From a bacterium (GTDB lineage Bacteria; Patescibacteriota; UBA1384; 2-12-FULL-50-11): 64,000 bases of DNA. The DNA lies in NCBI GenBank assembly GCA_021463485.1, contig JAJTYJ010000002.1, forward strand, positions 108,638 to 172,637, written 5' to 3'. The position numbers were made by a program, and so were the translations under genes. Below the pieces are notes generated by a model. That model had not been told where the DNA came from. It ran no database searches and worked only from the letters and a program-made list of their open reading frames with translations. Below, in pieces: positions 29,975 through 63,600 of this stretch; the first letter of the stretch is position 1; every line of letters starts with the position of its first letter.

Positions 29975-30030
29975 TTCTTAGGTTTATCTGTGATAGTATT
30001 GCTCTCGTTTCGCACATCAAGGAAGAAAGT

Positions 30031-48185: not shown

Positions 48186-48617
48186 ATGTTTATCGGCGAA
48201 TATCATCACAATTTGGACCAAAAAGGTCGGATTGCTGTGCCGGTGAAATTCCGCGCGGAACTGGGCTCTTCGGCGATTATTACCAAGGGTCTGGATCCGT
48301 GTCTGTTTGTTTATCCGAAGGAAGAGTGGATTAAGATGACCGATAAATTAGCAAATTTGCCGGTCTCCAGTTCCAGCGCTCGAGCATTTAGTCGTTTAAT
48401 GCTTTCGGGAGCGATGGAGGTGGAGATCGACAAGCAGGGACGAGCGTTACTACCCGGGTATCTTCGGGAATACGCTGGACTGAAAGACGCCGTTGTAATG
48501 ACCGGTGTCTTGAATCGTGTCGAGATCTGGGACAAACAAGGCTGGGCGCGTTACAGCAAGGATGCTGAAGCGAACGCGTCCGATAACGCCGAAAAACTCA
48601 CAGAATGGGAGATCTGA
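48186..48617 (+). CDS. mraZ: Transcriptional regulator MraZ
   Basis: Duplicated DxxxR-containing MraZ domains (…NLDQKGRIAVP… and …IDKQGRALLP…). Length is 143 aa. Confidence 0.9.
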   Translation: MFIGEYHHNLDQKGRIAVPVKFRAELGSSAIITKGLDPCLFVYPKEEWIKMTDKLANLPVSSSSARAFSRLMLSGAMEVEIDKQGRALLPGYLREYAGLKDAVVMTGVLNRVEIWDKQGWARYSKDAEANASDNAEKLTEWEI

Positions 48618-48893
48618 TGTCGAGTTTGTTTCAAAATCAATTTTGTGTGACCAGATGCGGGGGAAATCGTGATTGGGTTGCCCGCCAGGTTAAGTTTATT
48701 AACAAGGTATTGGGGCCCTAAACTTCGGTTTTAGGGAGGGATGTTGGGTTTTTGTCCTACTCTTCTTTTTAAGAGGGGACGCGTTGCCCGGCAGACGAGC
48801 CGTATTACGGTCCCCTGCATCTCGGCCAAAAAATGTACCTAACAACTTATTTCGACCACAAACAAATCGTAAGAGTGTAAACAATCTAAAGCT

Positions 48894-49757
48894 ATGGAAA
48901 ATCTGTCAAAGCACATACCAGTACTTGTCAACGAAGTGATCGCAGCGCTCCAGCCAGTAACCGGCAAAACGTATCTAGACGGAACGTTCGGCGGCGGCGG
49001 GCATACGCGAGCGATTCTCGATGCATCGGCGCCCAACGGGAGGGTGGTGGCGGTGGATCGCGACGAAAATGTAACGGTTTTTGCTGAAGCAGTTGCGAAG
49101 CAATACGGCGATCGGTTTGAGTTTCACGTTTTAAAATACGCCGATTGCGATCAATTGGAACGCGAATTCGATGGTGCAGTGTTGGATCTTGGTATGTCGA
49201 CAGATCAGCTAACTGGCTCGTGGCGGGGGTTTAGCTTTCAGCGCAGCGAACCATTAGACCTTCGGTTTGAAACTACCGGTCAGACTGCCGCTCAGTTTCT
49301 TCAACAAAGCAGCGCTTCAGCGATTGAACAGGTGTTTCGCGAGTACGCTCAAGATCGGTACGCTAAAAAACTTGCGGCTAAGATCGTCAACGAACGACGT
49401 ATCCGACCGATTAGAACCACGACAGATTTCGTTGAATACGTCGGGACTAACAATCCGAAAGTACTAGCACCGTTGTTTCAGGCATTGCGTATCCACATCA
49501 ACGACGAGTTGGTTAACATCAAGCGCGGACTCGAAGTCGTGTCATCGGTATTGCGACCAGGTTCGGTGCTGGCTGTCATTAGTTTCCATTCGCTCGAAGA
49601 TAAGATTGTCAAAGAATTCTTTCGTAGCAACAATTACGAATTGTTAACCAAAAAGCCGGTCGAACCGACTCAGGAAGAGATTAGAAATAACCCAAGCTCG
49701 CGAAGCGCAAAGTTACGCACGGGGCGCAAAAGGCTGACAGACACGAGTATCGAATAA
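48894..49757 (+). CDS. rsmH: 16S rRNA (cytosine1402-N4)-methyltransferase RsmH (MraW)
   Basis: SAM-binding block DGTFGGGGHTRAIL. Second gene of the dcw cluster. Confidence 0.9.
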   Translation: MENLSKHIPVLVNEVIAALQPVTGKTYLDGTFGGGGHTRAILDASAPNGRVVAVDRDENVTVFAEAVAKQYGDRFEFHVLKYADCDQLEREFDGAVLDLGMSTDQLTGSWRGFSFQRSEPLDLRFETTGQTAAQFLQQSSASAIEQVFREYAQDRYAKKLAAKIVNERRIRPIRTTTDFVEYVGTNNPKVLAPLFQALRIHINDELVNIKRGLEVVSSVLRPGSVLAVISFHSLEDKIVKEFFRSNNYELLTKKPVEPTQEEIRNNPSSRSAKLRTGRKRLTDTSIE

Positions 49758-49799
49758 TCGATATTGGTGCCTGGCAATCAGGGAAATCCAAGGAGGGAA

Positions 49800-50129
49800 A
49801 TGCAACATAACCGAATTCAGCGCAGACAAGTCTACAAATCAGGAGGAGTTTTTAGTATTGGCCCAACAGCGGCTCGGTATTTTATTTTAACGCTCCTGGC
49901 AGTTTTTTCGTTATTTTACTTAATCCAATCCGCTCAGGGATCAGACGGCTTAATTGAGCTTCGCAAGCTTGAAGACACGAAGGACTCGCTAACAAAAGAA
50001 ATGACGACGTTGAAGGTTAACGATAGTCGTATTCGTTCGTTGCAGAATCTTCAGCAGTCTGCATCATCGCAAGGGTTGGTGCCGATTTCTGGCGCTACTG
50101 AATCAATTACAGTGACACCGACACCGTGA
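49800..50129 (+). CDS. ftsL: Cell division protein FtsL-like (single TM plus coiled-coil)
   Basis: GGAGGGAA lies upstream of the ATG (MQHNRIQ…). One TM helix and a heptad region. The position is between rsmH and ftsI. Confidence 0.5.
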   Translation: MQHNRIQRRQVYKSGGVFSIGPTAARYFILTLLAVFSLFYLIQSAQGSDGLIELRKLEDTKDSLTKEMTTLKVNDSRIRSLQNLQQSASSQGLVPISGATESITVTPTP

Positions 50130-51829
50130 CGCAGATGGGCGATCGGGTTCTGTATATCCGAACAACGCTTCTACTGTTATTAGCGGCGTTTGCAGGTGGA
50201 TATTTTTTATTCAAATTATTCAATTATCAAGTTCTCGACCACGAGCAGTACGTTGAAGCGGCGGAGCTTCAGTCGACCAGTACCGCAACCGAACAAGCTC
50301 AGCGAGGCGTTATTTTAGCTAAGGATAGAGACGGGAAACTCTATACTCTTGCTGCCAGTGAAGAGCGCTACCAATTATTTATTGCACCTCGCCAAGTTAA
50401 GAATAAACAAAAACTAGCCGAGTTAATTGCAGAAGAAAAAATCGGGCTAAAAAAGGAAGAGATTTTTGAAAAAATTAATAACGACAAAGTGTATATTCCC
50501 GCGCTCGCACGCAATCTCACCCCGGCTCAAGCGGACGCATTACTTAAAAAGAACTACGTCGGCGTGTACGTCCGCCCAGAATTCGTTCGAGTGTACCCGG
50601 AAGGATCGGCGATCGCGCCGCAACTTTTGGGATTCGTTGGTTCAGATGGGCAAGGTAAATACGGCGTTGAAGCAACAAACGATCAGGTGTTGCGTGGCGT
50701 CTCCGGATCGGAAAAAGCTAAAAAGGATTCGCTCGGACGACTGATTGATATTTTAGGCGCAAAGCGCGCTGAGCCCGGTGCCGACATTGTGTTAACGATC
50801 GATTACAATTTACAATTTACAGTTGAAGCCAAACTAAAAGAGGCGACCGAACGATTTCAAGCCGAAGGCGGCTCGATCGTTATTCTCGATCCTAAAACCG
50901 GCGCAATTCTGGCAATGGCCGGCTACCCGACGTTTGATCCAAACATCTTCAACGAGGTTACCGGCGAGGCTCAGCGTAATTTCTTACCAGCCGGCGCTAG
51001 CTTGCCGTACGAACCGGGTAGCGTAATGAAACCAATTACTATGGCGATGGCGATCGAGATGGGTCTAGTACAACCAGACACTACGGAAATCTTTGGCGGA
51101 TCGGTAAAAGTCGGTGGGTTTGAGATTCGTAATGCGGAGGATAAGGTATACGGGAGAGAGACGATGACCCAAGTACTGGAAAACTCCGATAACGTTGCGA
51201 TGGTCTGGCTCTCGCAAAAAATCGGCAAAGAAAAACAGCGTGAATTCTTGGAAAAATTTGGTTACGGCGCCAAAACCGGTGTCGAATTAGTGGGCGAACA
51301 GCCAGGAGTGCTTCGTGATGCAAAAGAATGGAACGACACGCTGAGCGCAACTGCTGCGTACGGCCAGGGCGTCTCGGTAACGCCGTTGCAATTGGCTACG
51401 GCGTACGCAGTTATCGCCAATAACGGAGTGACAGTCTCGCCGCATTTAGTAGCGCAAACGATTCGTGGCACAGCTGTAACGCCGTACAGTGCGAAAGCGG
51501 GCACTCGGGTAATTAGCGAGGAAACGGCTAAAAAAATTAGGGAGATGTTAGTCTCGGTAGTTGAGCTTGGGCACGGCAAGAGAGCGAAAGTCGAGGGTAT
51601 TAGAGTTGGAGGTAAGACCGGTACGGCCCAAGTGGCCGACCCACAAGGCGGTTACGCTGAAGATAGACATATCGGTAACTTCGCTGGACTATTCCCGGCG
51701 GACGACCCAAAGTTCGTTATGGTCGTACGTCTCGACAACCCAAAGACTGTAAAGTTCGCCGAATCTTCAGCCGCTCCGATCTTCGGTGAGCTAGCTAACT
51801 GGATGACGAACTACTACAAACTGCGATAA
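50126..51829 (+). CDS. ftsI: Penicillin-binding protein 2x/FtsI-type transpeptidase
   Basis: N-terminal TM, SxxK (GSVMKP), SxN (NSDN) and KTG (KTGTA) motifs in order. Confidence 0.85.
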   Translation: MTQMGDRVLYIRTTLLLLLAAFAGGYFLFKLFNYQVLDHEQYVEAAELQSTSTATEQAQRGVILAKDRDGKLYTLAASEERYQLFIAPRQVKNKQKLAELIAEEKIGLKKEEIFEKINNDKVYIPALARNLTPAQADALLKKNYVGVYVRPEFVRVYPEGSAIAPQLLGFVGSDGQGKYGVEATNDQVLRGVSGSEKAKKDSLGRLIDILGAKRAEPGADIVLTIDYNLQFTVEAKLKEATERFQAEGGSIVILDPKTGAILAMAGYPTFDPNIFNEVTGEAQRNFLPAGASLPYEPGSVMKPITMAMAIEMGLVQPDTTEIFGGSVKVGGFEIRNAEDKVYGRETMTQVLENSDNVAMVWLSQKIGKEKQREFLEKFGYGAKTGVELVGEQPGVLRDAKEWNDTLSATAAYGQGVSVTPLQLATAYAVIANNGVTVSPHLVAQTIRGTAVTPYSAKAGTRVISEETAKKIREMLVSVVELGHGKRAKVEGIRVGGKTGTAQVADPQGGYAEDRHIGNFAGLFPADDPKFVMVVRLDNPKTVKFAESSAAPIFGELANWMTNYYKLR

Positions 51830-51839
51830 CTGATACACT

Positions 51840-52910
51840 ATGCCCATGAAAGCTTGGAGAGACGAATTTCTGTGGCGCTGCGCTCTGCGTCGAGTGAAGA
51901 ATGCGGATACGACCGTTATTGCTATCGGCGGTGGGATCGCTAAGACCTCGACCAAGTATGCTGTCGGAGCGGTGCTGTCGGATTTTTTCAAAGGTAATGT
52001 ATTTGTTGGCTTTGGAAACTTGAATACGTACCTCGGCGTGCCACTTTCGATTCTGGAATTCAAGATAGATTTTCACCACCAATCAATTAGTTGGCAGTGG
52101 CCGATTATTCTTATACAAGCTTGGGTACGCTCATTTGCGCCCCTGCCAAAGTACGTCGTGTTGGAGTACGGTACCGATCAGCCAGGAGATATAAGAAAAC
52201 TTACCAGCAAGCTGCCGCCACAGATTGCGGTTCTAACAACCGTTGCGCCAGCGCATGTGGTTAATTACGGCTCACTCGATGCGGTAGCTGAAGATGAAGG
52301 GGCGCTTGTCGCAGCCGTACCCAAAGACGGAGTGGTATTTTTGAACAAGCGAGATCCGTATTACTCCCAACATAAAAATCGTATCGTTGCTCAAACAGTC
52401 ATCGAAGCTGACTTACCAAATGAGGAGCTTTCTGTTGGTTTCGCTCGATTGGTTGGAGAATATCTCGATATTCCAGGCGAGAAAATCGAGGACTCACTCA
52501 AGCATATGGAATTGCCGCCACAGCGATTTTCTGAGCGACGGATAGGCGATTGGCTAGTATTAGACGATACGTATAACGCGAACCCTGCTTCAATGGAAGC
52601 GGCGCTTAGTCGATTAAAAAAGATGCCGGGTCGTAAAGTGGCGATACTCGGGACGATGCGCGAGCTCGGCGAGGCCGAGAAAATTCTTCACAAGCATATT
52701 GGGGATTTGGCTCAAACTGTTGCAGACGTTGTGATCGGTGTCGGTGAGCACACCGATCAATACCAACCAGTCGTGCGATTTGAAACCAGTGATCAGGCCG
52801 CTAAAGAGATCTTTTCTTATCTGAAAAAAGGAGATAGTATCTTGGTGAAGGGGTCACGATCAATTCATATGGAAAAGATAATCTCAGCTTTGGAACATGT
52901 CTCTGCTTGA
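51840..52910 (+). CDS. murF: UDP-MurNAc-tripeptide--D-Ala-D-Ala ligase MurF, short form lacking the N-terminal domain
   Basis: C-terminal signature LDDTYNANPASMEAAL. The P-loop region reads IAIGGGIAKTSTK, with Ala in place of the canonical Gly before Lys. 356 aa, versus about 450 for canonical MurF. Confidence 0.65.
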   Translation: MPMKAWRDEFLWRCALRRVKNADTTVIAIGGGIAKTSTKYAVGAVLSDFFKGNVFVGFGNLNTYLGVPLSILEFKIDFHHQSISWQWPIILIQAWVRSFAPLPKYVVLEYGTDQPGDIRKLTSKLPPQIAVLTTVAPAHVVNYGSLDAVAEDEGALVAAVPKDGVVFLNKRDPYYSQHKNRIVAQTVIEADLPNEELSVGFARLVGEYLDIPGEKIEDSLKHMELPPQRFSERRIGDWLVLDDTYNANPASMEAALSRLKKMPGRKVAILGTMRELGEAEKILHKHIGDLAQTVADVVIGVGEHTDQYQPVVRFETSDQAAKEIFSYLKKGDSILVKGSRSIHMEKIISALEHVSA

Positions 52911-53919
52911 AGCCTCGCATTTTGCGTTAGCGAAAACTTTCTGGCTGGCAAGTCTATCGTTTTTGGTCGCGTTTCTTTGGACGCCGTTATTTACTGATTT
53001 CTTATACAAAAACCGTTTAGGTAAAAAAATTAGACAAACAGGTTTTGACGAGAAGAAAGCACCAATTTTCTATGCTCTGCATAAGCACAAGGAAAACACT
53101 CCAACGATGGGAGGGCTGTTAATTTGGATAACGACCGCAGTAGTAACATTATTAATGAACTTATCGCGCGCTCAAACTTGGTTACCGCTCTTTGCTCTAG
53201 TCGCCACCGGTATTGTTGGGGCAATTGACGATATTATGAATATTAACGGCATCGGGCCGAATCGCGGCGGGCTGAGGTTTCGTTGGAAGTTGATTATTTA
53301 CGCGTTAATCGCGATGGTTGGTGCTTGGTGGTTTTATTACAAGCTTGGTTGGAACGTGCTGTCTATCCCCGGAATCGGACCGGTCGAGATCGGAGCCTGG
53401 TATATTCCGTTATTTATTCTGGTAATTGTCTTTACAACCTTTAGCGCCAACGAAGCAGACGGTCTGGACGGGCTGCTTGCTGGAATGATGGCGAGCTCGT
53501 TTGCGGCGTTCGGGATGATCGCGCTTATACAAGGTAAAACAGAATTAGCAGCCTTTTGTGGAACGATTCTCGGATCGTTACTGGCGTTTTTGTGGTTCAA
53601 TATTTATCCGGCCCGGTTCTTTATGGGGGATACCGGTGCGATGGCGCTCGGCATGACGCTTGGAATTTTAGCATTTCTTACTGATACAGTTTTGATCTTG
53701 CCGATTATCGCGCTGATGTTGTACGTCGAAGGTTTCTCAGCCGTTATCCAAATCGCTTCCAAGAAGCTGCGAAACGGTAAAAAAGTATTTTTGTCTGCCC
53801 CGATCCATCACCACTATCAGGCAATCGGTTGGGAAGAGCCGAAAATCACAATGCGTTTTTGGGTTGTCTCGGCGGTAGCGGCGATGCTCGGACTGTTTGT
53901 CTATCTTGTGAGCCGCTAG
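52897..53919 (+). CDS. mraY: Phospho-N-acetylmuramoyl-pentapeptide transferase
   Basis: 10-TM profile, DD/DG motifs (ANEADGLDGL) and HHH (APIHHHYQ). Confidence 0.9.
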   Translation: MSLLEASHFALAKTFWLASLSFLVAFLWTPLFTDFLYKNRLGKKIRQTGFDEKKAPIFYALHKHKENTPTMGGLLIWITTAVVTLLMNLSRAQTWLPLFALVATGIVGAIDDIMNINGIGPNRGGLRFRWKLIIYALIAMVGAWWFYYKLGWNVLSIPGIGPVEIGAWYIPLFILVIVFTTFSANEADGLDGLLAGMMASSFAAFGMIALIQGKTELAAFCGTILGSLLAFLWFNIYPARFFMGDTGAMALGMTLGILAFLTDTVLILPIIALMLYVEGFSAVIQIASKKLRNGKKVFLSAPIHHHYQAIGWEEPKITMRFWVVSAVAAMLGLFVYLVSR

Positions 53920-53951
53920 AAAATCTCCAGGTGTTACGGCATACTTAAGGT

Positions 53952-55343
53952 ATGTCGCGGATTGATTGGGAGAAATTTCGCTCGAAAAAAATTGGCTTAC
54001 TCGGTGCCGGTAAAGAGAACCTGAGTCTTATTCCATTTTTTGTGAAACACGGTGTCGATGTGGTGATTTGCGAGCAAAATAGTGAGCCGTCGAATATCGA
54101 GCGACTTGAGCGGATAGACGGGGTCGGATTGCAGATCGGCGAGGATGCATTAAGCGAGCTATCTCAATTTGATTACGTCTTTAGGACGCCAGGTATGCCA
54201 GTAGTTGAGGTCGAGCGCGCGATCAGTTCGTCGCAACCATCTCCAATTAGATCGTCAGCCGTCGATCTGTTTCTAGAATATTACGGAAAGCAGGTAATCG
54301 GCGTCACCGGAACCAAAGGCAAAGGTACGACCTCCACGATGATTTATTCGATACTCAAAGCCGGTTCAAAAAAGGTACAACTGGCGGGTAATATCGGCAA
54401 TTCAATTTTTGAGAGCATCGATCAGATCGACGACGAGACGTGGGTAGTTATGGAATTATCCAGCTTTCAGCTCGAAGATATCTCACACAGTCCGCACATC
54501 GCTGTTTTACTGCCGGTGACGTCTGAACATTTGCAGCCGCTCTCGGCCCGTAGTCCTAACTACCACCGATCGCTAGATGATTATATCGAAGCTAAAAGAC
54601 AGCTAGTGGCATTTCAGGCTACTGACGATGTTGTTGTGTACGCCGCTGATAGTCCGACTTCAACAAAGATGGCGGAGAGCTCAAAAGCCACACAATACGG
54701 CGTTGGAAGGTCGGCCGAATCTGCAGTTCTTACGGGTGATGAACTTGTGTTTCAGGGCCGGAAAATCTCATTAGCTAAAGCCGGAATTAAAGGGGATCAC
54801 TTACTTCTCGATGCGGCACTTGCAGCAGTGACAGCCGTACAGTGCGGTGTTAAGTCGGAAGATGTTATTCCCGGCCTAAAAACCTTCAAGCCGCTGCCGC
54901 ACCGAATGGAAAATATCGGAGTCTTTAACGGTATAACAGTTATCGACGACAGCTACGCAACCGCACCCGACGCGACAATTGCGGCGCTCTCCGCTTTCGA
55001 TCAGCCGACAATCCTACTAGCAGGGGGATCGTCTAAGGGTATGGATTTTACCGAACTCGCTCAAGCGATTATCCGTCGGAAAGTAAAGGCCGTGCTGTTA
55101 ATTGGTCAAGAAGCGCCGCGGATTGAGAAATCGTTGCAAGAAGTAGACTATCCGGGAATCGTCGAGAAATTGGACACCTTGGAGCAAGCAGTTAATCGAG
55201 CTATTGAGATTGCTGCCTCAGGCGACACTATTTTACTTTCGCCGGCCTGTGCGAGTAAGGATATGTTCATTGATGCCGCCGACCGTGGGACGCAATTCAC
55301 CCTATTAACTAGAAGTCTCCTTAAAGATGTCGCAAAGCGGTAA
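53952..55343 (+). CDS. murD: UDP-N-acetylmuramoylalanine--D-glutamate ligase
   Basis: Mur ligase P-loop GVTGTKGKGTTSTMI, in the MurD position of the dcw cluster. Confidence 0.85.
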   Translation: MSRIDWEKFRSKKIGLLGAGKENLSLIPFFVKHGVDVVICEQNSEPSNIERLERIDGVGLQIGEDALSELSQFDYVFRTPGMPVVEVERAISSSQPSPIRSSAVDLFLEYYGKQVIGVTGTKGKGTTSTMIYSILKAGSKKVQLAGNIGNSIFESIDQIDDETWVVMELSSFQLEDISHSPHIAVLLPVTSEHLQPLSARSPNYHRSLDDYIEAKRQLVAFQATDDVVVYAADSPTSTKMAESSKATQYGVGRSAESAVLTGDELVFQGRKISLAKAGIKGDHLLLDAALAAVTAVQCGVKSEDVIPGLKTFKPLPHRMENIGVFNGITVIDDSYATAPDATIAALSAFDQPTILLAGGSSKGMDFTELAQAIIRRKVKAVLLIGQEAPRIEKSLQEVDYPGIVEKLDTLEQAVNRAIEIAASGDTILLSPACASKDMFIDAADRGTQFTLLTRSLLKDVAKR

Positions 55344-56457
55344 CTACAAACTTCGAAAAAAGATTGATCCGATTATTCCGATCATCGGTTTCGGCCTCTC
55401 AGTTCTCGGGTTAGTAATGGTTCTTTCTGCCTCACAGATAACCGCTGCTGACAAATACGCCGATGCGTATCATTTTTTCGTTCGGCAGTTGATCGCATTC
55501 GGAATTGGTCTGGTCGGGTTCTTTTACTTTTTACGATTACCGCTAGAGCGACTTTACGAACGGCGCACCTCTTTTTTATGGGCAACATTAATACTACTCA
55601 TTCTGGTTTTCTTGCCGGGTATCGGCGGCGAAACGGCTGGCGTATACCGATGGGTTGGGTTCGGTGGTTTTTCATTCCAACCGTCTGAAGTTGCTAAGCT
55701 TTTTCTTGTTATTTATTTTTCGGCTTGGTTTGCCTCGAAAGGCGACGCCGTTAGCAGTGTCCAGAAAGGATTCATCCCCTTTCTGCTACTGCTGGCCATG
55801 ATCGCGTTACTAGTTGGAGCGCTCGGCCGAGATCTTGATACGGCTGTAGTATTACTTGTTAGTGCCGTAGTCATTTTCTTTGTCGCCAAAGCCAAAGTCT
55901 GGCAGGTTGGGGCGATTACATTACTGGCGATTGGGGCGGTGCTGCTGCTAATTTTTGCCACACCGTACCGACTAAACCGATTACAGTCGTATCAGGATCA
56001 ACGACAAAATAACGCCGAGTTTGATTCGCAGAATCGAGGCTATCACAGTCAACAAGCCTTGATCGCGGTAGGAAGCGGCGGCTTGTGGGGTGTGGGTTTC
56101 GGCCAAGGAACTAGTAAATATTCGTATTTACCCGAGGCGCACACCGATTCTATTTTCGCAGTTATCGCTGAGGAGCTCGGCTTTATCCGCGCAGCGGCGC
56201 TATTGCTTGCGTACGTGTTGTTGGCTTGGCGAGGTTTAGTAATCGCTCAAAGGGCCAATAGTCGGTTCGTTTGTTACTTGGCGGTAGGTATTTCTACCTT
56301 GATTATTCTTCAGACCCTGATAAATATAGGAGGGATGCTCGCGCTGTTACCGCTCGCCGGAATTCCGCTTCCGTTTGTAAGTTACGGCGGCACTTCGTTA
56401 ATTGTGAGCTTAGCAATGTTGGGTGTTTTAACTAATGCTTCAAGAGAAACAAAATAA
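55327..56457 (+). CDS. ftsW: Peptidoglycan glycosyltransferase FtsW (SEDS family)
   Basis: 10-TM SEDS profile with conserved …GGTS… C-terminal blocks. Confidence 0.85.
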   Translation: MSQSGNYKLRKKIDPIIPIIGFGLSVLGLVMVLSASQITAADKYADAYHFFVRQLIAFGIGLVGFFYFLRLPLERLYERRTSFLWATLILLILVFLPGIGGETAGVYRWVGFGGFSFQPSEVAKLFLVIYFSAWFASKGDAVSSVQKGFIPFLLLLAMIALLVGALGRDLDTAVVLLVSAVVIFFVAKAKVWQVGAITLLAIGAVLLLIFATPYRLNRLQSYQDQRQNNAEFDSQNRGYHSQQALIAVGSGGLWGVGFGQGTSKYSYLPEAHTDSIFAVIAEELGFIRAAALLLAYVLLAWRGLVIAQRANSRFVCYLAVGISTLIILQTLINIGGMLALLPLAGIPLPFVSYGGTSLIVSLAMLGVLTNASRETK

Positions 56458-57547
56458 TAATGTAATAGCGCTGGTCGGTGGTGGCACAGGTGGTCACGTT
56501 TTTCCGCTTGTTGCTGTCGCTGAGGAGTTGGCTCAACAGAAACGAGAGTTTTTATTCATCGGTTCTGCCGAGAGTCTCGAAGAACGGGTAGTTACTAATT
56601 TGGGATGGAAACTAGAAACGATCCAGGCAGGAAAATGGAGACGATACTCAACGCTTAAATCGTTCTTCTTAAATATCGTTGATGCGTTTAAGGTTGTGAT
56701 CGGTTTTTTTCAGTCAATCAAAGTTATTCGGCGTAATAAAGTTGGGACAGTATTTAGTAAGGGCGGTTACGTTGCCCTTCCGGTTGTCTTCGCTGCGAAA
56801 TTACTGGGTTGTCGAATTATTGTTCACGAATCCGACGCAGTTATGGGAATGACGAATCGTTTAAGTGCCGCAGTTGCCGATCGGGTATTGACTGCGTTTG
56901 GGCTCGAGAGTTACCCAAATAGAAATGATCGTTATCGTCAGGTCGGTATTCCAGTTCGTGCCGTTTTACGACGGGCAGCCACGCTAAAGGCGCCGAAAAA
57001 ATCACGGCCACTACTGCTCGTGTTGCCCGGAAGTCAAGGATCCGCGGCTATAAATTCGTTTATTCGAAGCTCTCTACCTAAATTATTAGAAACACTGGAT
57101 GTGGTGCACTTAACTGGAGAGCGCGAGTATCAAGAATTTATAAAGATTAAAGAGTCCCTAAACTCCTCACAACGTTCGCATTATAAGCCGTATAGTTTTA
57201 TCGATAGAGAATTGCCGTTGTATTTCCAGAGCGCCGACTTGGTTATTGCGAGATCTAGTGCCACGACTATCGCTGAGGCGGCATTATTTGCAAAAGCGAT
57301 GTATCTCGTGCCGCTACCAACTGCAGCGGCTAATCACCAGTACGAAAACGCGCTGAGGTTAGACTCGGCTAACGCGGCAATTGTGAGACAAGAGTATCAA
57401 CTCTCGACGGAAGTTTTTGTTCAAGACATACTCAAATTAATTTCAGACCCAGAGAAACTCCAGGAAATCGGCAATCGACTAAAGGAGTACTTCAAAACGC
57501 AAGCAACAATTTCAGAAATTATTAAGGAGATCGATGGCAAAAACTAA
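56435..57547 (+). CDS. murG: UDP-GlcNAc:undecaprenyl-PP-MurNAc-pentapeptide GlcNAc transferase
   Basis: N-terminal GGTGGHVFP motif and a GT-B fold. Confidence 0.85.
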   Translation: MLQEKQNNNVIALVGGGTGGHVFPLVAVAEELAQQKREFLFIGSAESLEERVVTNLGWKLETIQAGKWRRYSTLKSFFLNIVDAFKVVIGFFQSIKVIRRNKVGTVFSKGGYVALPVVFAAKLLGCRIIVHESDAVMGMTNRLSAAVADRVLTAFGLESYPNRNDRYRQVGIPVRAVLRRAATLKAPKKSRPLLLVLPGSQGSAAINSFIRSSLPKLLETLDVVHLTGEREYQEFIKIKESLNSSQRSHYKPYSFIDRELPLYFQSADLVIARSSATTIAEAALFAKAMYLVPLPTAAANHQYENALRLDSANAAIVRQEYQLSTEVFVQDILKLISDPEKLQEIGNRLKEYFKTQATISEIIKEIDGKN

Positions 57548-58943
57548 AGGCGAGCCGAAGTCGTTGTATTTTATCGGTATTAAAGGTGTGGCGATGACTG
57601 GGTTGGCGGTGATCGCAAAGCAATTAGGGTACGAGGTGACTGGCAGTGACGTTGAAGAAGTCTTTATCACGGACTCGCTTTTAGCCGAACACGGTATCAA
57701 ATATTTCTCAGGCTTTGACGCGAGTCATATCGCTCAAACCAAGCCAGAGATGGTGATCGTTAGTGCGGCGTACGGGTTACAGAACCCAGAAGTAAAAGCC
57801 GCCAAATCTGCTCGAATCTCGACGATCCCACAATCTGAAATGCTGGGTAAAATTATTAGCCGCTACGAGGGCGTTGGAGTGGCGGGCGTTCACGGTAAAA
57901 CAACCACTACCTCGATGCTGGCGTTCGTATTAAAAGAAGCCGGATTCTCACCGAGCTACGCGATCGGCACAAGCGATATTCCTGGTCTTGAGGGTAGCTC
58001 GCATCTTGGCGACGGCAGTCATTTCATCGTTGAGGCCGACGAGTATAAAAAGTCGGATACCGAACTCCAGCCAAAATTCTTAGATTATCCTCTCCAGCAC
58101 GTTATTATTACTAGTATTGAGCTGGATCATCCCGATGTGTTTCAAAGCGCCACCCAAGTCTACGACGCCTTCTACAAACTAACTACCAAATTGCCACGCA
58201 ACGGAACGATCGTTGCTTGCGTCGACTGGCCGCTTGTTCGTCGGTTGGTCGGGCGTTTAGTCGACCGGGGGTGTGAAACCTACGGATTTATGCCAGGAGC
58301 TAGCTATCAGGTAATCGATTACTCTGAGACAGATACTCATTCGGAGTTCTGGCTCAAAACCGAAGATCACAAGATCGGGCCGTTTCATTGTAAGATGCCC
58401 GGCAAACATAACGCCCTCAATACAACTGCGGCGTTCGTTATGGCGGTAAAACTTGGCGTCTCAGAAAAAATCGCAATTAAGGCGCTTGGTAAGTTTTCCG
58501 GACCGAAACGTCGGTTTGAATTGCTTGGAACCTTCAACGGCGCTCAGATTTTCGACGATTACGCGCATCACCCAAGCGCGCTCGAGTACTTATTTGAAGC
58601 GACACGAGCACGGTTTCCTGGAAAACGCTTAGTGGCAGTCTTTCAGCCGCATACCTACAGTCGAACCGGAAAGTTACTGCACGAGTTTGCAAAGAGCTTA
58701 CAATCACCCGATAAACTAATTCTCCTGAATATTTGGGCGTCTGCTCGCGAGAAGAGCGGCTACGTTACGATTAAGGATTTAATCGACGCAGTAAAAAAGA
58801 GTAAGCCAGACGTCGAGTACCGCTCCTCACTAGACGAAGCAGCGACGTTCCTGCGAAGCTTGATAACGCCGGACGATGTTGTACTACTAGTTGGAGCTGG
58901 GGATGTCTACAAAATTTACGACAAACTCACTAGCGACAGCTGA
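57534..58943 (+). CDS. murC: UDP-N-acetylmuramate--L-alanine ligase
   Basis: GVAGVHGKTTTTSM P-loop and the DDYAHHP signature. Confidence 0.9.
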   Translation: MAKTKGEPKSLYFIGIKGVAMTGLAVIAKQLGYEVTGSDVEEVFITDSLLAEHGIKYFSGFDASHIAQTKPEMVIVSAAYGLQNPEVKAAKSARISTIPQSEMLGKIISRYEGVGVAGVHGKTTTTSMLAFVLKEAGFSPSYAIGTSDIPGLEGSSHLGDGSHFIVEADEYKKSDTELQPKFLDYPLQHVIITSIELDHPDVFQSATQVYDAFYKLTTKLPRNGTIVACVDWPLVRRLVGRLVDRGCETYGFMPGASYQVIDYSETDTHSEFWLKTEDHKIGPFHCKMPGKHNALNTTAAFVMAVKLGVSEKIAIKALGKFSGPKRRFELLGTFNGAQIFDDYAHHPSALEYLFEATRARFPGKRLVAVFQPHTYSRTGKLLHEFAKSLQSPDKLILLNIWASAREKSGYVTIKDLIDAVKKSKPDVEYRSSLDEAATFLRSLITPDDVVLLVGAGDVYKIYDKLTSDS

Positions 58944-59886
58944 GCATCGACGGCGATTTTCTGAGATCGTCGGTGATCAACATGTGGCAGTGAACCGCTC
59001 GTTAGCAGAACTTTTACCTATCGGATTTGGGGGAGTGGTTGAATACTTCGTGACAGCTACTACGAGTCAGCAACTCGTCGACGTTGCAAGATTGGCGATC
59101 GAACTAAAAATGCCGTACCAGGTGGTTGCCGGCACTACAGCTTGCTTGCCGAGCGACGTCGGGTTCCCAGGGCTGATTATCAACAATCAAGCCGACTCGA
59201 TGTTTTTTGCGGAGGAGTCGCGACAAGTTGTTGTTGATAGCGGTGTTAGTAACTCGACGTTGGTAATGTCGGCGGCGAACCGCTCGTACGGTGGGATCGA
59301 ATTTCTAACAGCAATTCCAGGCTCAATCGGAGGTGCACTAGCAACTAACGCAGCGTACGATGGTAAGACACTTCGCAACCAGTGCCTAAAGGAAGTCGTG
59401 GTGTTTATTCCTGATATTGACGGCGGCAAAACTATGACCGTACCAATTACCGAACTACCCGATACACCGTATCAACGTATTTTTACCTCTGAAGCAGGTT
59501 TCCAGCCGATCATCCTAACCGCTCGGTTACAACTAGCCCAGCTATCTCAATACGAGATAGTTCAACGTCTCAAACAGCTTCGATCGGTAGTTAATGCTAA
59601 TCGCGGGGTGACATTTTCGAATTTTATTTCTGACATTCCTCCATTTGAACCCAGAGACTTGCGCTTACCTAAGCCGCCGGACGGCGTTAGGTATTCGCTG
59701 AAAAACCCAAATACTCTCACAATTCAACGAAAGAAAGATGTTAGCGGCTCGGCGATAAGGAGTTTTATCGAACAAGTTTCTATAGCGTTCAATAACGGAA
59801 CAAGCGCGCTTGATGTTCGGCTAACCTATCTGGGATACTGGCCTGAGGATGATGAGAAACACAGCACCAACGCCGAAAGTCTTTAA
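58891..59886 (+). CDS. Divergent MurB-like (FAD-binding PCMH-type) paralog at the canonical murB position of the dcw cluster
   Basis: PCMH-like N-terminal half. GGALATNAA replaces the canonical GGxxRGNAG block. A GVTFSNF block parallels the MurB catalytic-Ser region. A canonical murB exists separately at 29039-29974. Confidence 0.45.
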   Translation: MELGMSTKFTTNSLATAEHRRRFSEIVGDQHVAVNRSLAELLPIGFGGVVEYFVTATTSQQLVDVARLAIELKMPYQVVAGTTACLPSDVGFPGLIINNQADSMFFAEESRQVVVDSGVSNSTLVMSAANRSYGGIEFLTAIPGSIGGALATNAAYDGKTLRNQCLKEVVVFIPDIDGGKTMTVPITELPDTPYQRIFTSEAGFQPIILTARLQLAQLSQYEIVQRLKQLRSVVNANRGVTFSNFISDIPPFEPRDLRLPKPPDGVRYSLKNPNTLTIQRKKDVSGSAIRSFIEQVSIAFNNGTSALDVRLTYLGYWPEDDEKHSTNAESL

Positions 59887-60634
59887 CGCAACCTATAAAC
59901 CGCCGAAAGCCTCTCAATCGAACGGCAGCAATCGGTCGATTCGACCGTTATTATTTGTAGGTGTTGTGCTCGTTGGAGGACTACTTATCAGTCGTTTACC
60001 TTTTTTCCAGATTAAACACGTTGACGTACGCAACAGTCCATCTATTGCAGTGACGGAGCTAGCACAGTCATTAATTGGTCAATCAATTTTTTCAAATAAA
60101 ATACAAATGGTAGCTCAGCAGGCACTCGAGGAATATCCAGTACTCGAGTCGTTTAACTGTACCCGCGGGTTACCCGCTACGGTACGGTGTGAAGCAAAGG
60201 CTCGTGAGGCTCGGTTCATCTGGAAATCTGGCGATAAATCGTATTTATTAGATAGATCTGGTTACGTCTTTACTGAACTTACGAATGAAACTCTGCCGAT
60301 ACTGGAAGACCGAGCGAGTAAGCCGGTTTCGATCGGCGAAGAAGTTACGAGCGAGGAGACGGTTGCAGTCTACGATCAGCTGGTAACATTACTACTGAAA
60401 GACGGTTTAACCGTTTCCCAGCTTTTTATTTCAGAGTCGTTTTATCAATTCGGCGCTGTAATTAGTGCTCGTGCTAATAAAACGTTCCCAGGAAATCCGA
60501 TATCTGTATTATTTACCACGAGCTATCCGGTTGAATCCCAGGTGACTATTCTAAGTAAAGTCCTTGATGAACGGTCAGCACAGATAAAAGAGCGAATTGA
60601 TCTAAGGGTTCCGGGCAATGTCTATTTCTACTAG
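59849..60634 (+). CDS. ftsQ: Cell division protein FtsQ/DivIB-like (TM plus POTRA)
   Basis: The N-terminal TM is followed directly by a POTRA-like segment (QIKHVDVRN…). Position is after murB in the cluster. Confidence 0.5.
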   Translation: MMRNTAPTPKVFNATYKPPKASQSNGSNRSIRPLLFVGVVLVGGLLISRLPFFQIKHVDVRNSPSIAVTELAQSLIGQSIFSNKIQMVAQQALEEYPVLESFNCTRGLPATVRCEAKAREARFIWKSGDKSYLLDRSGYVFTELTNETLPILEDRASKPVSIGEEVTSEETVAVYDQLVTLLLKDGLTVSQLFISESFYQFGAVISARANKTFPGNPISVLFTTSYPVESQVTILSKVLDERSAQIKERIDLRVPGNVYFY

Positions 60635-62318: not shown

Positions 62319-63600
62319 AGTCACATACTCTTGCTCTAATTGCGGCGCAAAGTTTACCAACTGGTCGGGCCGATGCAGTACATGTGGTGAGTGGAATACG
62401 ATAACTGAAGAACATGACGCTGTTGTGCTAAATGAGAAGAGCGCCGAATCGGTAGAGTTGTCTCCAATCGCATCACTTGCAACCTCAAAGCAAGAGCGAA
62501 TCCTCTCAAAATTAGCTGAGTTTGATCGTGTTCTCGGCGGTGACGACCCAGGGATCGTACCAGGTTCGGTACTGCTGTTGGCTGGCACGCCGGGGGTTGG
62601 TAAGAGCACGCTGCTACTACAGGTTGCTAGCTCAATTAAAGGAACACTCTATTTTTCGGCCGAAGAATCAACGAATCAAATTTATCTTCGTGCGTCTCGC
62701 TTAGGATTAACGAAGAGTCAGTTATCGATCGCAGCTGAACGCGATATTAATCGGATTATCGCGACGATTAAACAACACCGACCGCCTTTAGTGGTTATCG
62801 ACTCGATTCAAACCGTGTTTGATGATACGGTCGCTGGTACTCCCGGCTCGCTAGTGCAGGTTCGCGAGAACACGTGGCGACTCCAGCAGTTAGCTAAGCA
62901 GCTCGGCACTGCGATCTTGGTAGTCGGTCACGTTACTAAAGAGGGCGTAGTTGCGGGTCCGAAAGTCTTAGAGCACCTCGTCGACGTCGTTCTCTACCTA
63001 GAAGGCGATAAACAAACCGGATTGAGGGTGCTTCGCGCAGAAAAAAATCGATACGGATCGACCGATGAAGTCGGTATCTGGCAGATTACTCAAAGCGGTC
63101 TCGATCCGGTTAAAGACCCTGGGGCGCTATTTGAGCAGTTGATCGGTGAGGAGATTCCAGGTCGCTCGTTAACCATTACCCAAGAAGGTAGTCGCGCTTT
63201 CGTTGTTGAGATTCAAGCCTTACTTACTAAAACAAGCTACGGTTATCCAAAGCGAACAGCGCAAGGAATCGAAGCTAACCGCTTAACGGTGCTATTAGCA
63301 GTACTGGAGAACCGCCTAGAGCTGCCACTCTCACAGTACGATGTTTATTTAAATGTAGTCGGGGGATTTAGCTTGAAAGACCCGGGAATCGATTTGGCTA
63401 TCGCGGCAGCGATTATCTCTGGATTAACTAAAAAAGTTCTCCAGCCTAAGATGGTTTTCTTGGGTGAGATCGGTCTGCTCGGTGAGGTTAGACCGCCGTT
63501 TGATAGTGAACGTCGCATCAAAGAAGCGAAACGTCTTGGCTATACTGTCAACCCAAAACTTCGCTCAGTCCGAGCCATACCAGTACTGATTGAGAAGTAA
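62296..63600 (+). CDS. radA: DNA repair protein RadA/Sms
   Basis: N-terminal C4 zinc finger CSNCGAKFTNWSGRCSTCGEW, Walker A GTPGVGKST, KNRFG-type motif EKNRYGSTDE, and a Lon-like C-terminus. Confidence 0.9.
   Translation: MNSMARSKVTYSCSNCGAKFTNWSGRCSTCGEWNTITEEHDAVVLNEKSAESVELSPIASLATSKQERILSKLAEFDRVLGGDDPGIVPGSVLLLAGTPGVGKSTLLLQVASSIKGTLYFSAEESTNQIYLRASRLGLTKSQLSIAAERDINRIIATIKQHRPPLVVIDSIQTVFDDTVAGTPGSLVQVRENTWRLQQLAKQLGTAILVVGHVTKEGVVAGPKVLEHLVDVVLYLEGDKQTGLRVLRAEKNRYGSTDEVGIWQITQSGLDPVKDPGALFEQLIGEEIPGRSLTITQEGSRAFVVEIQALLTKTSYGYPKRTAQGIEANRLTVLLAVLENRLELPLSQYDVYLNVVGGFSLKDPGIDLAIAAAIISGLTKKVLQPKMVFLGEIGLLGEVRPPFDSERRIKEAKRLGYTVNPKLRSVRAIPVLIEK

What the first reader, a model, noticed from the sequence alone, without database searches (positions are those of the whole stretch)
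48186..60634. Atypical dcw cluster: murE, ddl, ftsA and ftsZ absent; N-terminally truncated MurF with altered P-loop; second divergent MurB
The gene order is mraZ-rsmH-ftsL-ftsI-murF-mraY-murD-ftsW-murG-murC-murB'-ftsQ, then recJ and radA directly. No murE lies between ftsI and murF (the junction is 10 nt). MurF lacks its N-terminal domain and has AKT in place of GKT in the P-loop. The murB-position gene has a degenerate substrate loop (GGALATNAA), while a canonical murB sits 29 kb away. This could mean an unusual stem-peptide synthesis route or relaxed ligase specificity (MurF or MurD covering for MurE?).
Basis: partly seen in the sequence, partly recalled or inferred. Interest (0 to 1): 0.5.

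Follow-up and report, generated by a model that had tools for sequence, protein, structure and literature searches.

The report
Berkelbacteria cell-wall operon, minimal MurF
This is the normal, tightly packed cell-division and cell-wall operon of an ultra-small Berkelbacteria (CPR) bacterium: its MurF ligase without a first domain and its catalytically dead second MurB are conserved across the lineage, and nothing shows that murE, ddl, ftsA or ftsZ are missing from the genome rather than just from this operon.

Summary
The gene order is mraZ-rsmH-ftsL-ftsI-[356-aa MurF]-mraY-murD-ftsW-murG-murC-[MurB-like]-ftsQ-recJ-radA. The ftsI-murF gap is 10 nt. The P-loop reads GGGIAKTS. A canonical murB lies 29 kb upstream.

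None of this is a local accident. The same operon, without murE, occurs in more than 12 independent Berkelbacteria assemblies. Other CPR lineages and one Chloroflexota MAG also have ftsI directly followed by murF. MurF without the N-terminal domain is a large family: almost all of the best 150 representatives in an exhaustive search are of this kind. The AKT P-loop is fixed across the lineage. Both odd genes are under purifying selection (dN/dS 0.13 and 0.07).

The short MurF keeps the catalytic Lys/Thr, Glu and His, the D-x-YN motif and the MurF-specific C-terminal motifs, and it models as MurF (pLDDT 92). The MurB-like gene is the old operon copy of murB. It has lost the catalytic Arg, Ser and Glu and the substrate loop.

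The window covers about 9% of a roughly 0.7-Mb genome and also lacks murA. Absence from the window therefore says little about the genome. Whole-genome absence of murE could not be tested with these tools. I rate it a new variant of a known kind, of modest interest.

The parts
48186..48617 (+). mraZ
   Evidence: Pfam MraZ, E 1.6e-39.
48894..49757 (+). rsmH (mraW) 16S rRNA methyltransferase
   Evidence: Pfam Methyltransf_5, E 2.4e-74.
49764..50129 (+). ftsL-like small gene
   Evidence: Assigned from its position between rsmH and ftsI. There is only a weak NCBIfam FtsL_Actino match (26 bits against a cutoff of 55). It is conserved in relatives at 44-98% identity.
50126..51829 (+). ftsI, class B penicillin-binding protein
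   Evidence: Pfam PBP_dimer plus Transpeptidase, full length to residue 556 of 567.
51840..52910 (+). Two-domain MurF (356 aa). It has no N-terminal UDP-binding domain, a GGGIAKTS P-loop, a deletion of about 35 aa in the central domain, and an inserted loop plus helix at residues about 72-100.
52897..53919 (+). mraY
   Evidence: TIGR00445, 200.8 bits against a cutoff of 192.
53952..55343 (+). murD, canonical three-domain ligase
   Evidence: TIGR01087, 329 bits against a cutoff of 212. Pfam MurD-like_N, Mur_ligase_M and Mur_ligase_C.
55327..56457 (+). ftsW
   Evidence: TIGR02614, 348.8 bits against a cutoff of 337.5.
56435..57547 (+). murG
   Evidence: TIGR01133, 249.2 bits against a cutoff of 250.25. 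Both GT28 domains are present.
57534..58943 (+). murC, canonical three-domain ligase
   Evidence: TIGR01082, 409.7 bits against a cutoff of 335.
58903..59886 (+). MurB-derived, probably non-catalytic paralogue ('MurB-prime'). The likely start is the ATG at 58903 (327 aa); the ORF reaches back to a TTG at 58891.
   Evidence: Only the Pfam FAD_binding_4 domain matches. The best NCBIfam MurB model scores 82 bits against a cutoff of 259. The catalytic Arg, Ser and Glu and the substrate loop are lost in all 10 orthologues. The predicted fold is MurB. dN/dS is 0.07.
59849..60634 (+). ftsQ/divIB
   Evidence: Pfam FtsQ_DivIB_C, E 6.9e-5. The orthologue in L029 has POTRA_1.
60618..62318 (+). recJ. It overlaps ftsQ by 17 nt and occupies the slot where ftsA-ftsZ usually lie.
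   Evidence: Pfam DHH, DHHA1 and RecJ_OB. The position is conserved in all relatives.
62296..63600 (+). radA
   Evidence: Pfam Zn_ribbon, AAA_25 and ChlI.
29039..29974 (+). Canonical murB, the catalytic copy
   Evidence: Pfam FAD_binding_4 plus MurB_C. The YRES, AGSxFKN and LETE motifs are intact. Homologues at 48-76% identity occur across CPR.
29971..30495 (+). YkuD-type L,D-transpeptidase, overlapping murB by 4 nt
   Evidence: Pfam YkuD, E 8.8e-15. The same gene pair is present in CP066697.1.
44177..45271 (+). Alanine racemase, part of the conserved block recO-alr-hyp-aaRS upstream of mraZ
   Evidence: Pfam Ala_racemase_N and Ala_racemase_C. Synteny shown.

Best explanation
The region is the standard dcw (division and cell wall) operon of Candidatus Berkelbacteria, a class of the CPR/Patescibacteria (GTDB class UBA1384). 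It runs as one tightly overlapping transcription unit from rsmH to radA.

The 356-aa ligase is this lineage's MurF, the enzyme that adds D-Ala-D-Ala to the stem tripeptide. It has a reduced two-domain form: an ATP-binding central domain plus a C-terminal domain. The first domain is missing in many CPR MurFs. Berkelbacteria have in addition an Ala in place of the Gly before the P-loop Lys and have lost a small segment of the central domain. In the window's own subclade, the lysine that is carbamylated in other MurD/E/F enzymes is replaced by Glu, as in MurC.

The gene in the murB slot is the ancestral operon copy of murB. It has lost its catalytic residues and substrate loop while a second, canonical murB (paired with an L,D-transpeptidase) does the chemistry. 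It is retained under selection, presumably for a non-catalytic role.

murE, ddl, ftsA and ftsZ are simply not part of this lineage's operon. They are most likely encoded elsewhere in the roughly 0.7-Mb genome.

Shown here: gene identities, conservation across the lineage, purifying selection, retained and lost residues, and predicted folds. Inferred: enzymatic activity of the short MurF, inactivity of the MurB-like protein, and the presence of murE, ddl and ftsAZ elsewhere.
For: Synteny. The identical order recO-alr-hyp-aaRS-mraZ-rsmH-ftsL-ftsI-MurF-mraY-murD-ftsW-murG-murC-MurB'-ftsQ-recJ-radA is found in independent assemblies at 42-88% MurF identity: L001/L025, L011, L012, L013, L015, L018, L020, L022 and L027.

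The short MurF is real and functional-looking.
- Stop-to-stop ORFs leave at most 57 residues before the P-loop in every relative.
- 43 database clusters of 349-382 aa all lack Pfam PF01225.
- An exhaustive HMMER search of 1.84 billion representatives gave 26,599 hits. The top 150 are almost all 350-440 aa, with the alignment starting at residue about 5-30 of the target.
- Residues invariant with canonical MurFs are K35, T36, E109, H139, R229, D243, Y245, N246, G271-M273-E275-G277 and K337-G338-S339.
- The AlphaFold2 model has pLDDT 92.5 and pTM 0.89. Its best PDB matches are MurF 4qf5 and 3zl8, with TM about 0.80.
- dN/dS against BroJett034 is 0.128.
- The AKT/AKS P-loop is present in all 17 Berkelbacteria-type loci listed and in a full-length Limnocylindrales MurF.

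MurB'.
- All 10 orthologues lack the YR(E/S)S Arg, the GSxFKN Ser, the UDP-sugar loop and the LExE Glu. The operon-slot MurBs of related lineages L023, L024 and L029 keep all of these.
- L029 shares the synteny through recJ-radA-PBP1-TyrRS-ArgRS.
- dN/dS is 0.070, and the predicted fold is MurB 1hsk with TM 0.76.

Operon absence does not imply genome absence.
- The window is 64 kb against relatives' contigs of 685,065 and 768,650 bp.
- murA is also absent from the window.
- Other CPR loci, and a Chloroflexota locus, also have ftsI followed directly by murF.
- A Nealsonbacteria murC sits alone outside any dcw cluster.
- The literature reports that many phyla lack particular genes in the dcw cluster (PMC8871954) and that complete peptidoglycan pathways occur in some CPR (PMC4736985; PMC13293708).
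Against: murE, ddl, ftsA and ftsZ were never actually found for this lineage. About 76 kb of the window organism (window plus flanks) and 10-kb flanks in 17 relatives contain none.

CPR in general are reported to keep ftsZ in a dcw context (PMC9871819), so the ftsQ-recJ junction here is unusual even for CPR.

The short MurF departs from several features treated as family invariants. It lacks the UDP-binding domain. It has Ala in the P-loop. The segment carrying the 'G-x-H-N-x-x-N-A' motif of canonical MurFs is deleted (alignment; the role of that motif is from my own knowledge). It scores below the NCBIfam cutoff. Activity is therefore an inference. NCBI's annotation pipeline has named some members 'cyanophycin synthetase' or 'hypothetical protein'.
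Confidence: 0.7

Rival explanations
1. The lineage truly lacks MurE (and perhaps Ddl), and builds its stem peptide by an unusual route, for example MurD or the short MurF acting with relaxed specificity, or import of preformed peptides.
For: No murE was found in the window, its flanks or any relative's locus. The MurF is strongly remodelled. CPR are thought to be host-dependent with reduced biosynthesis (PMC13293708).
Against: Only about 9-12% of the genome was seen, and murA and murI are equally 'absent'. MurC and MurD are canonical equivalogs. The short ligase keeps MurF-specific C-terminal motifs. FtsI, a class A PBP and a YkuD L,D-transpeptidase are encoded, and they need a position-3 diamino acid. 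The same ftsI-murF adjacency occurs in a Chloroflexota MAG with a full-length MurF.
Confidence: 0.07
2. The N-domain-less MurF does not use the UDP-linked substrate in the canonical way. Like MurT, which also lacks the UDP-binding domain, it may act on a lipid-linked or otherwise non-nucleotide muropeptide, or it may need a partner protein for substrate delivery.
For: The N-terminal domain of about 90 residues in MurC-F recognises the UDP moiety. MurT lacks it and works on lipid II (PMC6113224). MurT structures appear among the fold matches (ranks 12-18). The loss is ancient and widespread in CPR rather than a one-off. The gene overlaps mraY by 14 nt.
Against: The C-terminal domain is Mur_ligase_C with MurF motifs, not MurT's DUF1727, and NCBIfam gives no MurT hit. 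No GatD-like partner was seen in the window. There is no membrane-anchoring segment (maximum Kyte-Doolittle 19-residue mean 1.33). The best structural matches are closed MurF structures. Canonical MurF also makes substrate contacts through its central domain, so loss of the first domain need not change the substrate.
Confidence: 0.1
3. The short MurF and the MurB-like gene are decaying remnants (pseudogenes), or artefacts of metagenome assembly or gene calling.
For: Both fall below curated family cutoffs, and the MurB-like protein has lost its catalytic residues.
Against: The reading frames are intact and of the same length in more than 12 independent assemblies from different studies. dN/dS is 0.13 and 0.07, in the range of murD and ftsQ. 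AlphaFold2 models are high-confidence. The in-frame stop 9 nt upstream of the MurF ATG and the full-length ftsI exclude a hidden N-terminus. L017 has lost the MurB-like gene altogether, which shows that this copy can be lost outright rather than linger as a remnant.
Confidence: 0.03

Closest known systems
Canonical MurF, the UDP-MurNAc-tripeptide:D-Ala-D-Ala ligase (E. coli 1GG4, A. baumannii 4QF5, T. maritima 3ZL8; NCBIfam TIGR01143)
   Same: It is the best sequence family match, the best PDB sequence match and the best fold match, with TM about 0.8. The central ATP-binding and C-terminal domains are present. K, T, E, H, R and D-x-YN are invariant, as are the 'G-x-M-x-E-L-G' and 'K-G-S-R' motifs. 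The gene lies between ftsI and mraY.
   Different: It has no N-terminal UDP-binding domain of about 85-100 aa. Ala replaces the Gly before the P-loop Lys. About 35 aa of the central domain are deleted, including the canonical G-x-H-N-x-x-N-A segment. It has an extra loop plus helix after 'GVPLSIL'. In this subclade Glu replaces the carbamylated Lys. The score is below the family cutoff.
MurT of the MurT-GatD lipid II amidotransferase (S. aureus 6H5E/6GS2)
   Same: It is a Mur-ligase-family protein that naturally lacks the N-terminal UDP-binding domain, and MurF is its closest structural relative (PMC6113224). It appears among the fold hits.
   Different: MurT has a DUF1727-type C-terminal domain, often a Cys4 zinc ribbon, and needs GatD. 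None of these is present here. Sequence motifs and gene context here are those of MurF.
MurB, the UDP-N-acetylenolpyruvoylglucosamine reductase, type II (S. aureus 1HSK)
   Same: The MurB-like protein has the FAD_binding_4 domain, the 'PGTxGGA' motif and a predicted three-domain MurB fold with TM 0.76. It occupies the ancestral murC-murB-ftsQ slot, which related lineages fill with an intact MurB.
   Different: The catalytic Arg, Ser and Glu and the UDP-sugar-binding loop are lost. The Asn of the GxGSN flavin loop is lost. No MurB_C Pfam match. The score is 82 bits against a cutoff of 259. A separate intact murB exists in the same genome.
Reduced or split dcw clusters in other phyla (for example Chlamydiae and Planctomycetes without ftsA/ftsZ; dispersed clusters in Cyanobacteria)
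   Same: The core gene order is conserved, with lineage-specific absence of particular genes from the cluster (PMC8871954).
   Different: In Chlamydiae and Planctomycetes ftsZ is missing from the genome. Here only absence from the operon is shown. CPR in general are reported to keep ftsZ in a dcw context (PMC9871819).

Membership tests
dcw (division and cell wall) gene cluster | Collinear order mraZ-rsmH-ftsL-ftsI-...-murF-mraY-murD-ftsW-murG-murC-(murB)-ftsQ | tested here: met
   All twelve genes are identified in that order, with overlapping or short junctions.
dcw (division and cell wall) gene cluster | murE between ftsI and murF; ddl before ftsQ; ftsA-ftsZ after ftsQ (the full 15-17-gene form) | tested here: not met
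   The ftsI-murF gap is 10 nt and ftsQ overlaps recJ. There is no fourth Mur ligase, Ddl, FtsA or FtsZ in the window or its flanks. The same holds in more than 12 relatives.
MurF (TIGR01143) | Whole-protein score at or above the curated cutoff | tested here: not met
   214.7 bits against a cutoff of 288.6. murF is still by far the best family, with murD at 22 bits and no murE hit.
MurF (TIGR01143) | N-terminal UDP-binding domain of about 90 aa | tested here: not met
   There are 27 residues before the P-loop and an in-frame stop 9 nt upstream of the ATG. No PF01225 match.
MurF (TIGR01143) | P-loop G-x-x-G-K-[ST] | tested here: not met
   The sequence reads G-G-G-I-A-K-T. Lys and Thr are invariant, but Ala replaces the Gly. 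This holds in 22 of 23 family members and in all the Berkelbacteria-type loci.
MurF (TIGR01143) | Mur-ligase catalytic residues (Mg-binding Glu, His, Arg, and D-x-Y-N of the C-terminal domain) and MurF-type C-terminal motifs | tested here: met
   E109, H139, R229, D243, Y245, N246, G271/M273/E275/G277 and K337/G338/S339 are invariant across short and canonical MurFs.
MurF (TIGR01143) | Carbamylated Lys of MurD/E/F and the G-x-H-N-x-x-N-A segment of the central domain (roles from my own knowledge of Mur ligase enzymology) | tested here: not met
   The Lys position is Glu in the window's subclade and Lys in other subclades. The H-N-x-x-N segment falls in the deletion of about 35 aa.
MurF (TIGR01143) | MurF fold in the central and C-terminal domains | tested here: met
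   The AlphaFold2 model has pLDDT 92.5. The top 10 Foldseek PDB hits are all MurF, with TM up to 0.81.
MurF (TIGR01143) | ATP-dependent addition of D-Ala-D-Ala to UDP-MurNAc-tripeptide | not testable with these tools
   This needs an enzyme assay or complementation.
MurB (UDP-N-acetylmuramate dehydrogenase) | FAD_binding_4 domain plus MurB_C domain, with a score above the equivalog cutoffs | tested here: not met
   Only FAD_binding_4 matches (E 1.5e-11). The best NCBIfam MurB model scores 82.2 bits against a cutoff of 259.
MurB (UDP-N-acetylmuramate dehydrogenase) | Catalytic Arg (YRxS), Ser (GSxFKN) and Glu (LExE), plus the UDP-sugar-binding loop | tested here: not met
   All are lost in the window protein and in 9 further orthologues. 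All are present in the window's canonical MurB and in the operon-slot MurBs of L023, L024 and L029.
MurB (UDP-N-acetylmuramate dehydrogenase) | Three-domain MurB fold | tested here: inconclusive
   The model has pLDDT 81 and best matches 1hsk and 4pyt at TM 0.76-0.77. However, the alignment used for modelling contained canonical MurBs, and the third domain has the lowest confidence.
MurT (lipid II isoglutaminyl synthase subunit) | Mur ligase central domain without an N-terminal domain | tested here: met
   
MurT (lipid II isoglutaminyl synthase subunit) | DUF1727-type C-terminal domain and an adjacent GatD glutaminase partner | tested here: not met
   The C-terminal domain is Pfam Mur_ligase_C. 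No NCBIfam MurT match was reported for this protein. No GatD-like gene was seen in the window.

The most novel reading that the evidence does not exclude
CPR bacteria as a group carry out the last cytoplasmic step of stem-peptide synthesis with a two-domain MurF that has dispensed with the UDP-binding domain. In Berkelbacteria it has also dispensed with the canonical P-loop glycine and the H-N-x-x-N adenine-site segment. This would imply a different mode of substrate recognition: a lipid-linked or non-nucleotide acceptor as for MurT, or obligatory hand-over within a Mur enzyme complex, possibly one in which the catalytically dead MurB paralogue is a structural subunit. An even stronger version is that complete Berkelbacteria genomes truly lack murE.
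Probability: 0.12. Interest if true: 0.7.

Novelty: new variant of a known kind. Interest (0 to 1): 0.35.

Why it matters
If the ordinary explanation holds, the practical lessons are for annotation.

- Curated MurF and MurB models miss or mislabel these proteins. Sources name members 'cyanophycin synthetase', 'Mur ligase family protein' or 'hypothetical protein'. Automated pathway reconstructions would therefore wrongly score the MurF step as missing in Berkelbacteria and related CPR, and could wrongly count two MurBs.
- For enzymology, a naturally minimal MurF (356 aa, no UDP-binding domain, variant P-loop, Glu in place of the carbamylated Lys) that is conserved under selection tests which parts of a validated antibiotic target are really indispensable.
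- The dead MurB kept in the operon is a clean example of a pseudoenzyme arising after paralogue takeover.
- If murE were truly absent from the complete genomes, it would point to a new way of building or acquiring the peptidoglycan stem peptide in an episymbiotic lineage. That check is cheap to run.

Tried and rejected
1. Whole-genome search for murE, ddl and ftsAZ was not possible. The tools fetch at most 10 kb around a known protein. I extended the window through recJ and tpiA look-ups and sampled 10-kb flanks in 17 GTDB relatives and around canonical murB in four other CPR genomes. No murE was found. One candidate Mur ligase near murB in a Nealsonbacteria contig proved to be MurC.
2. I looked for a lineage-specific DNA repeat that could be used to sample the genome by pattern search. 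None exists in the window.
3. I looked for a MurE-MurF fusion to use as a CPR MurE bait among long homologues of the short MurF. The extra domains were beta-lactamase-like or S11 carboxypeptidase domains, not MurE.
4. Literature searches on Berkelbacteria, CPR or Patescibacteria combined with murE, Mur ligase or peptidoglycan, on BroJett034, and on accession CP066697 gave nothing specific.
5. A hidden N-terminus through frameshift or an alternative start was rejected: there is an in-frame TGA at 51831-51833 and ftsI is full length.
6. L002 at first looked like another N-domain-less case. A fragment similar to the Mur-ligase N-domain lies just upstream in a frameshift-ridden assembly, so I dropped it as evidence.
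7. The idea that the inserted Trp-rich segment is a membrane anchor was rejected on hydropathy.
8. The idea that canonical murB is a recent foreign acquisition was rejected. Its homologues at 48-76% identity are CPR-wide.
It behaved as a real MurE, giving 41-44% identity to the murE fragments of a non-CPR locus (L005), but it is not a verified sequence.

Full report
**What is in the sequence**

From rsmH to radA the junctions are 32 nt or shorter, and most overlap, so this is one compact operon.

ftsI ends at 51829 and the ligase starts at 51840. An in-frame TGA at 51831-51833, together with a full-length ftsI, excludes a hidden N-terminus. The ligase has only 27 residues ahead of a P-loop that reads AIGGGIAKTSTK.

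The MurB-like ORF most likely starts at the ATG at 58903, as in its orthologues. It matches only the Pfam FAD_binding_4 domain. A complete MurB lies at 29039-29974 and overlaps a YkuD L,D-transpeptidase gene by 4 nt.

**Whose genome it is**

Homologues carry the names Candidatus Berkelbacteria and 'Patescibacteria group'. The rRNA genes are unlinked, as is common in CPR.

The window's exact proteins sit on a 185,700-bp NCBI contig. Proteins more than 90% identical sit on contigs of 685,065 bp (BOKZ01000001.1, 'BroJett034') and 670,539 bp. A closed Berkelbacteria genome, CP066697.1, is 768,650 bp. The window is therefore roughly 9% of the genome.

**The operon is lineage-typical**

I ran tblastn with the window's proteins against 27 fetched loci. 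The block recO-alr-hyp-aaRS-mraZ-...-ftsI-MurF-mraY-murD-ftsW-murG-murC-MurB'-ftsQ-recJ-radA is conserved in independent assemblies from different studies: L001/L025, L011, L012, L013, L015, L018, L020, L022 and L027. MurF identity in these ranges from 42 to 88%.

None of them has murE between ftsI and murF. Where a gap exists, it holds a small unrelated gene on the minus strand.

ftsI directly followed by murF also occurs in other CPR lineages (L003 Uhrbacteria, L004, L006, L029) and in a Limnocylindrales (Chloroflexota) MAG with a full-length MurF (L026).

A sister lineage (L029) shares the synteny through recJ-radA-class A PBP-TyrRS-ArgRS. The ftsQ-recJ junction, without ftsA-ftsZ, therefore predates core Berkelbacteria.

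The flanks of the window organism were also examined, 8-10 kb beyond the right end and about 4 kb beyond the left end. They hold a class A PBP, tRNA synthetases and ribosomal genes, and none of the missing genes.

**The short ligase is MurF in a reduced form**

- Family assignment. NCBIfam ranks murF first by a wide margin: 214.7 bits, against 22 bits for murD and no hit for murE. The score is below the 288.6 cutoff. All significant PDB sequence matches are MurF apart from one multifunctional fusion protein.
- Retained residues. An alignment with canonical MurFs shows invariant K35 and T36 (P-loop), E109, H139, R229, D243-x-Y245-N246, the G271-x-M-x-E-L-G277 motif and the K337-G-S motif.
- Missing or altered parts. 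The whole N-terminal domain is missing, as are about 33-38 residues of the central domain. In canonical MurFs that deleted stretch contains the G-x-H-N-x-x-N-A segment. Its role in nucleotide binding is from my own knowledge of Mur ligases, not from a tool result.
- Added part. A loop plus helix is inserted at residues about 72-100. It has conserved D77, F78 and W87 and is not a transmembrane segment.
- Predicted structure. The AlphaFold2 model is confident (pLDDT 92.5, pTM 0.89). Its ten best PDB fold matches are all MurF, with TM up to 0.81.

**How widespread the oddities are**

Forty-three 90%-identity clusters of 349-382 aa lack PF01225.

The exhaustive HMMER search of 1.84 billion representatives returned 26,599 hits. 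Nearly all of the best 150 are 350-440 aa, with the alignment starting within the first 30 or so residues of the target. MurF without the N-domain is therefore a large family. True cases in other CPR were confirmed on stop-to-stop ORFs (L003, L004, L006, L029).

The Ala in the P-loop is present in 22 of 23 family members and in every Berkelbacteria-type locus. It also occurs in the full-length Limnocylindrales MurF. The sister lineage L029 still has GKT and the longer central domain.

At the position of the lysine that is carbamylated in MurD, MurE and MurF (Glu in MurC; my own knowledge), the window's subclade has Glu together with a G-G-G/A P-loop start. Subclades with T-G-S keep Lys.

dN/dS between the window and BroJett034 is 0.128 for this gene, comparable to murD at 0.121.

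I conclude that it is a functional, strongly remodelled MurF. Its activity is inferred, not shown.

**The MurB-like gene is a degenerate operon copy of murB**

Its ten orthologues have lost four things: the YR(E/S)S arginine, the GSxFKN serine, the roughly 20-residue UDP-sugar loop and the LExE glutamate. They keep PGTxGGA and a family-specific C-terminal 'YLGYWP' motif.

The operon-slot MurBs of the related lineages L023, L024 and L029 keep every catalytic motif. L017 has lost the gene altogether.

The window's other MurB is intact. It belongs to a type conserved at 48-76% identity across CPR, and it is paired with the L,D-transpeptidase in CP066697.1 as well.

The degenerate copy is under purifying selection (dN/dS 0.070) and models as a MurB fold (pLDDT 81; TM 0.76 to 1hsk). 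That model leaned on an alignment containing real MurBs.

The best reading is a pseudoenzyme retained for a non-catalytic role. What that role is remains unknown.

**The missing genes**

No tool here can scan a whole genome of this lineage. My indirect attempts all failed: flank walking, repeat-based sampling, a search for fusion baits, and literature searches (and the literature calls).

Several points argue that the operon's gaps are not informative about the genome:

- The window also lacks murA, murI and ddl, although the canonical MurB, MurD and MurF encoded here require their products.
- Peptidoglycan genes are scattered in CPR. One example is a lone murC in Nealsonbacteria.
- Cluster-level loss of individual genes is described as common across phyla (PMC8871954).
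- Complete peptidoglycan pathways are reported for some CPR (PMC4736985; PMC13293708).
- The encoded FtsI, class A PBP and YkuD enzymes need a diamino acid at stem position 3.

One point stands against complacency. CPR in general are reported to keep ftsZ in a dcw context (PMC9871819), so Berkelbacteria are atypical in this respect.

I put the probability that murE is truly absent from the genome at well under 10%. That figure is a prior, not a result.

**Comparison with what is known, and verdict**

Mechanistically the ligase should work like MurF. Architecturally it resembles MurT, the one characterised Mur-family enzyme that lacks the UDP-binding domain and acts on lipid II (PMC6113224). 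It has neither MurT's C-terminal domain nor a GatD partner.

It fails several formal MurF membership criteria: the score cutoff, the N-terminal domain, the P-loop glycine, and the carbamyl-lysine and H-N-x-x-N segment. It meets the catalytic-residue, C-terminal-motif, fold and gene-context criteria.

I found no paper describing N-domain-less MurF in CPR or a dead MurB in the dcw operon. The library searched is limited to open-access texts.

What is actually there is a lineage-wide variant of a well-known system.

The finding is of modest interest (0.35). The one cheap, decisive step is an HMM search of the closed genomes CP066697.1 and BOKZ01000001.1.

Noticed in passing
window 24752-42392: The rRNA genes are unlinked. 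16S is at 25052-26503, 23S at 38898-41835 and 5S at 42275-42392. The 12.4 kb between 16S and 23S holds protein-coding genes, including murB, ldt, dcd and fpg. Inverted repeats bracket 16S (24752-24773 / 26571-26592) and 23S (38789-38817 / 41883-41911) and are probably processing stems.
   Followed up: partly
window 26637-26834: tRNA-Ile(GAT) lies at 26706-26780 on the minus strand, just downstream of the plus-strand 16S. It is flanked by partial copies of its own halves: 26637-26676 is 88% identical to 26706-26745, and 26799-26834 is 94% identical to 26743-26778. This could be a remnant of a duplication or integration event. tRNA-Ala(TGC) lies 5.5 kb away at 32274-32347.
   Followed up: no
window 8472-18423 (minus strand): A 2201-aa ORF (11818-18423) has no Pfam match. 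It is followed by three paralogous ORFs of about 365 aa (8472-11818) built from 1.13-kb repeat units. Next to them are Big_1/CarboxypepD_reg surface proteins at 6001-8471. These are probably cell-surface or attachment proteins.
   Followed up: no
window 29039-30495; L028 10001-11444: Canonical murB and a YkuD L,D-transpeptidase overlap by 4 nt. The pair is conserved in the closed Berkelbacteria genome CP066697.1, which suggests co-expression of precursor synthesis with 3-3 cross-linking.
   Followed up: partly
P0223 (721 aa) and P0264 (636 aa), metagenome proteins: Homologues of the short MurF are fused to a beta-lactamase-like domain at the N-terminus (P0223) or to an S11 D-Ala-D-Ala carboxypeptidase domain at the C-terminus (P0264). 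I did not check whether these are real fusions or gene-call run-ons.
   Followed up: partly
L026 5996-7732 (Limnocylindrales MAG DASXVG010000096.1): A full-length MurF in a Chloroflexota MAG carries the same ITGSIAKT P-loop (Ala before Lys) and follows ftsI without murE. The variant has therefore arisen, or persisted, outside CPR.
   Followed up: partly
L029 (ENA ERZ27247363 k141_2529979): A sister lineage has the same synteny out to recJ-radA-PBP1-TyrRS-ArgRS. It differs in having an intact MurB in the operon slot, a GKT P-loop and a 416-aa N-domain-less MurF. It is a useful outgroup for ordering the evolutionary steps.
   Followed up: partly
L030 171-1550 (Nealsonbacteria JACPLN010000005.1): murC (TIGR01082, 400 bits) stands alone next to a 2366-aa surface protein, about 8.5 kb from murB and outside any dcw cluster. 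It illustrates how scattered peptidoglycan genes are in CPR.
   Followed up: yes
L015 9333-9944 and L018 9328-9882 (minus strand): In some Berkelbacteria a small unrelated gene is inserted on the opposite strand between ftsI and the short MurF: a 203-aa ORF in L015 and a 184-aa ORF in L018 (neither was scanned against a family library). This is exactly the position where murE lies in other bacteria.
   Followed up: no
L032 / L033 (CPR contigs of 742 kb and 570 kb): Several LAGLIDADG homing-endonuclease ORFs lie in stretches with few other called genes near murB. They are probably intron-containing rRNA genes, as described for CPR.
   Followed up: no
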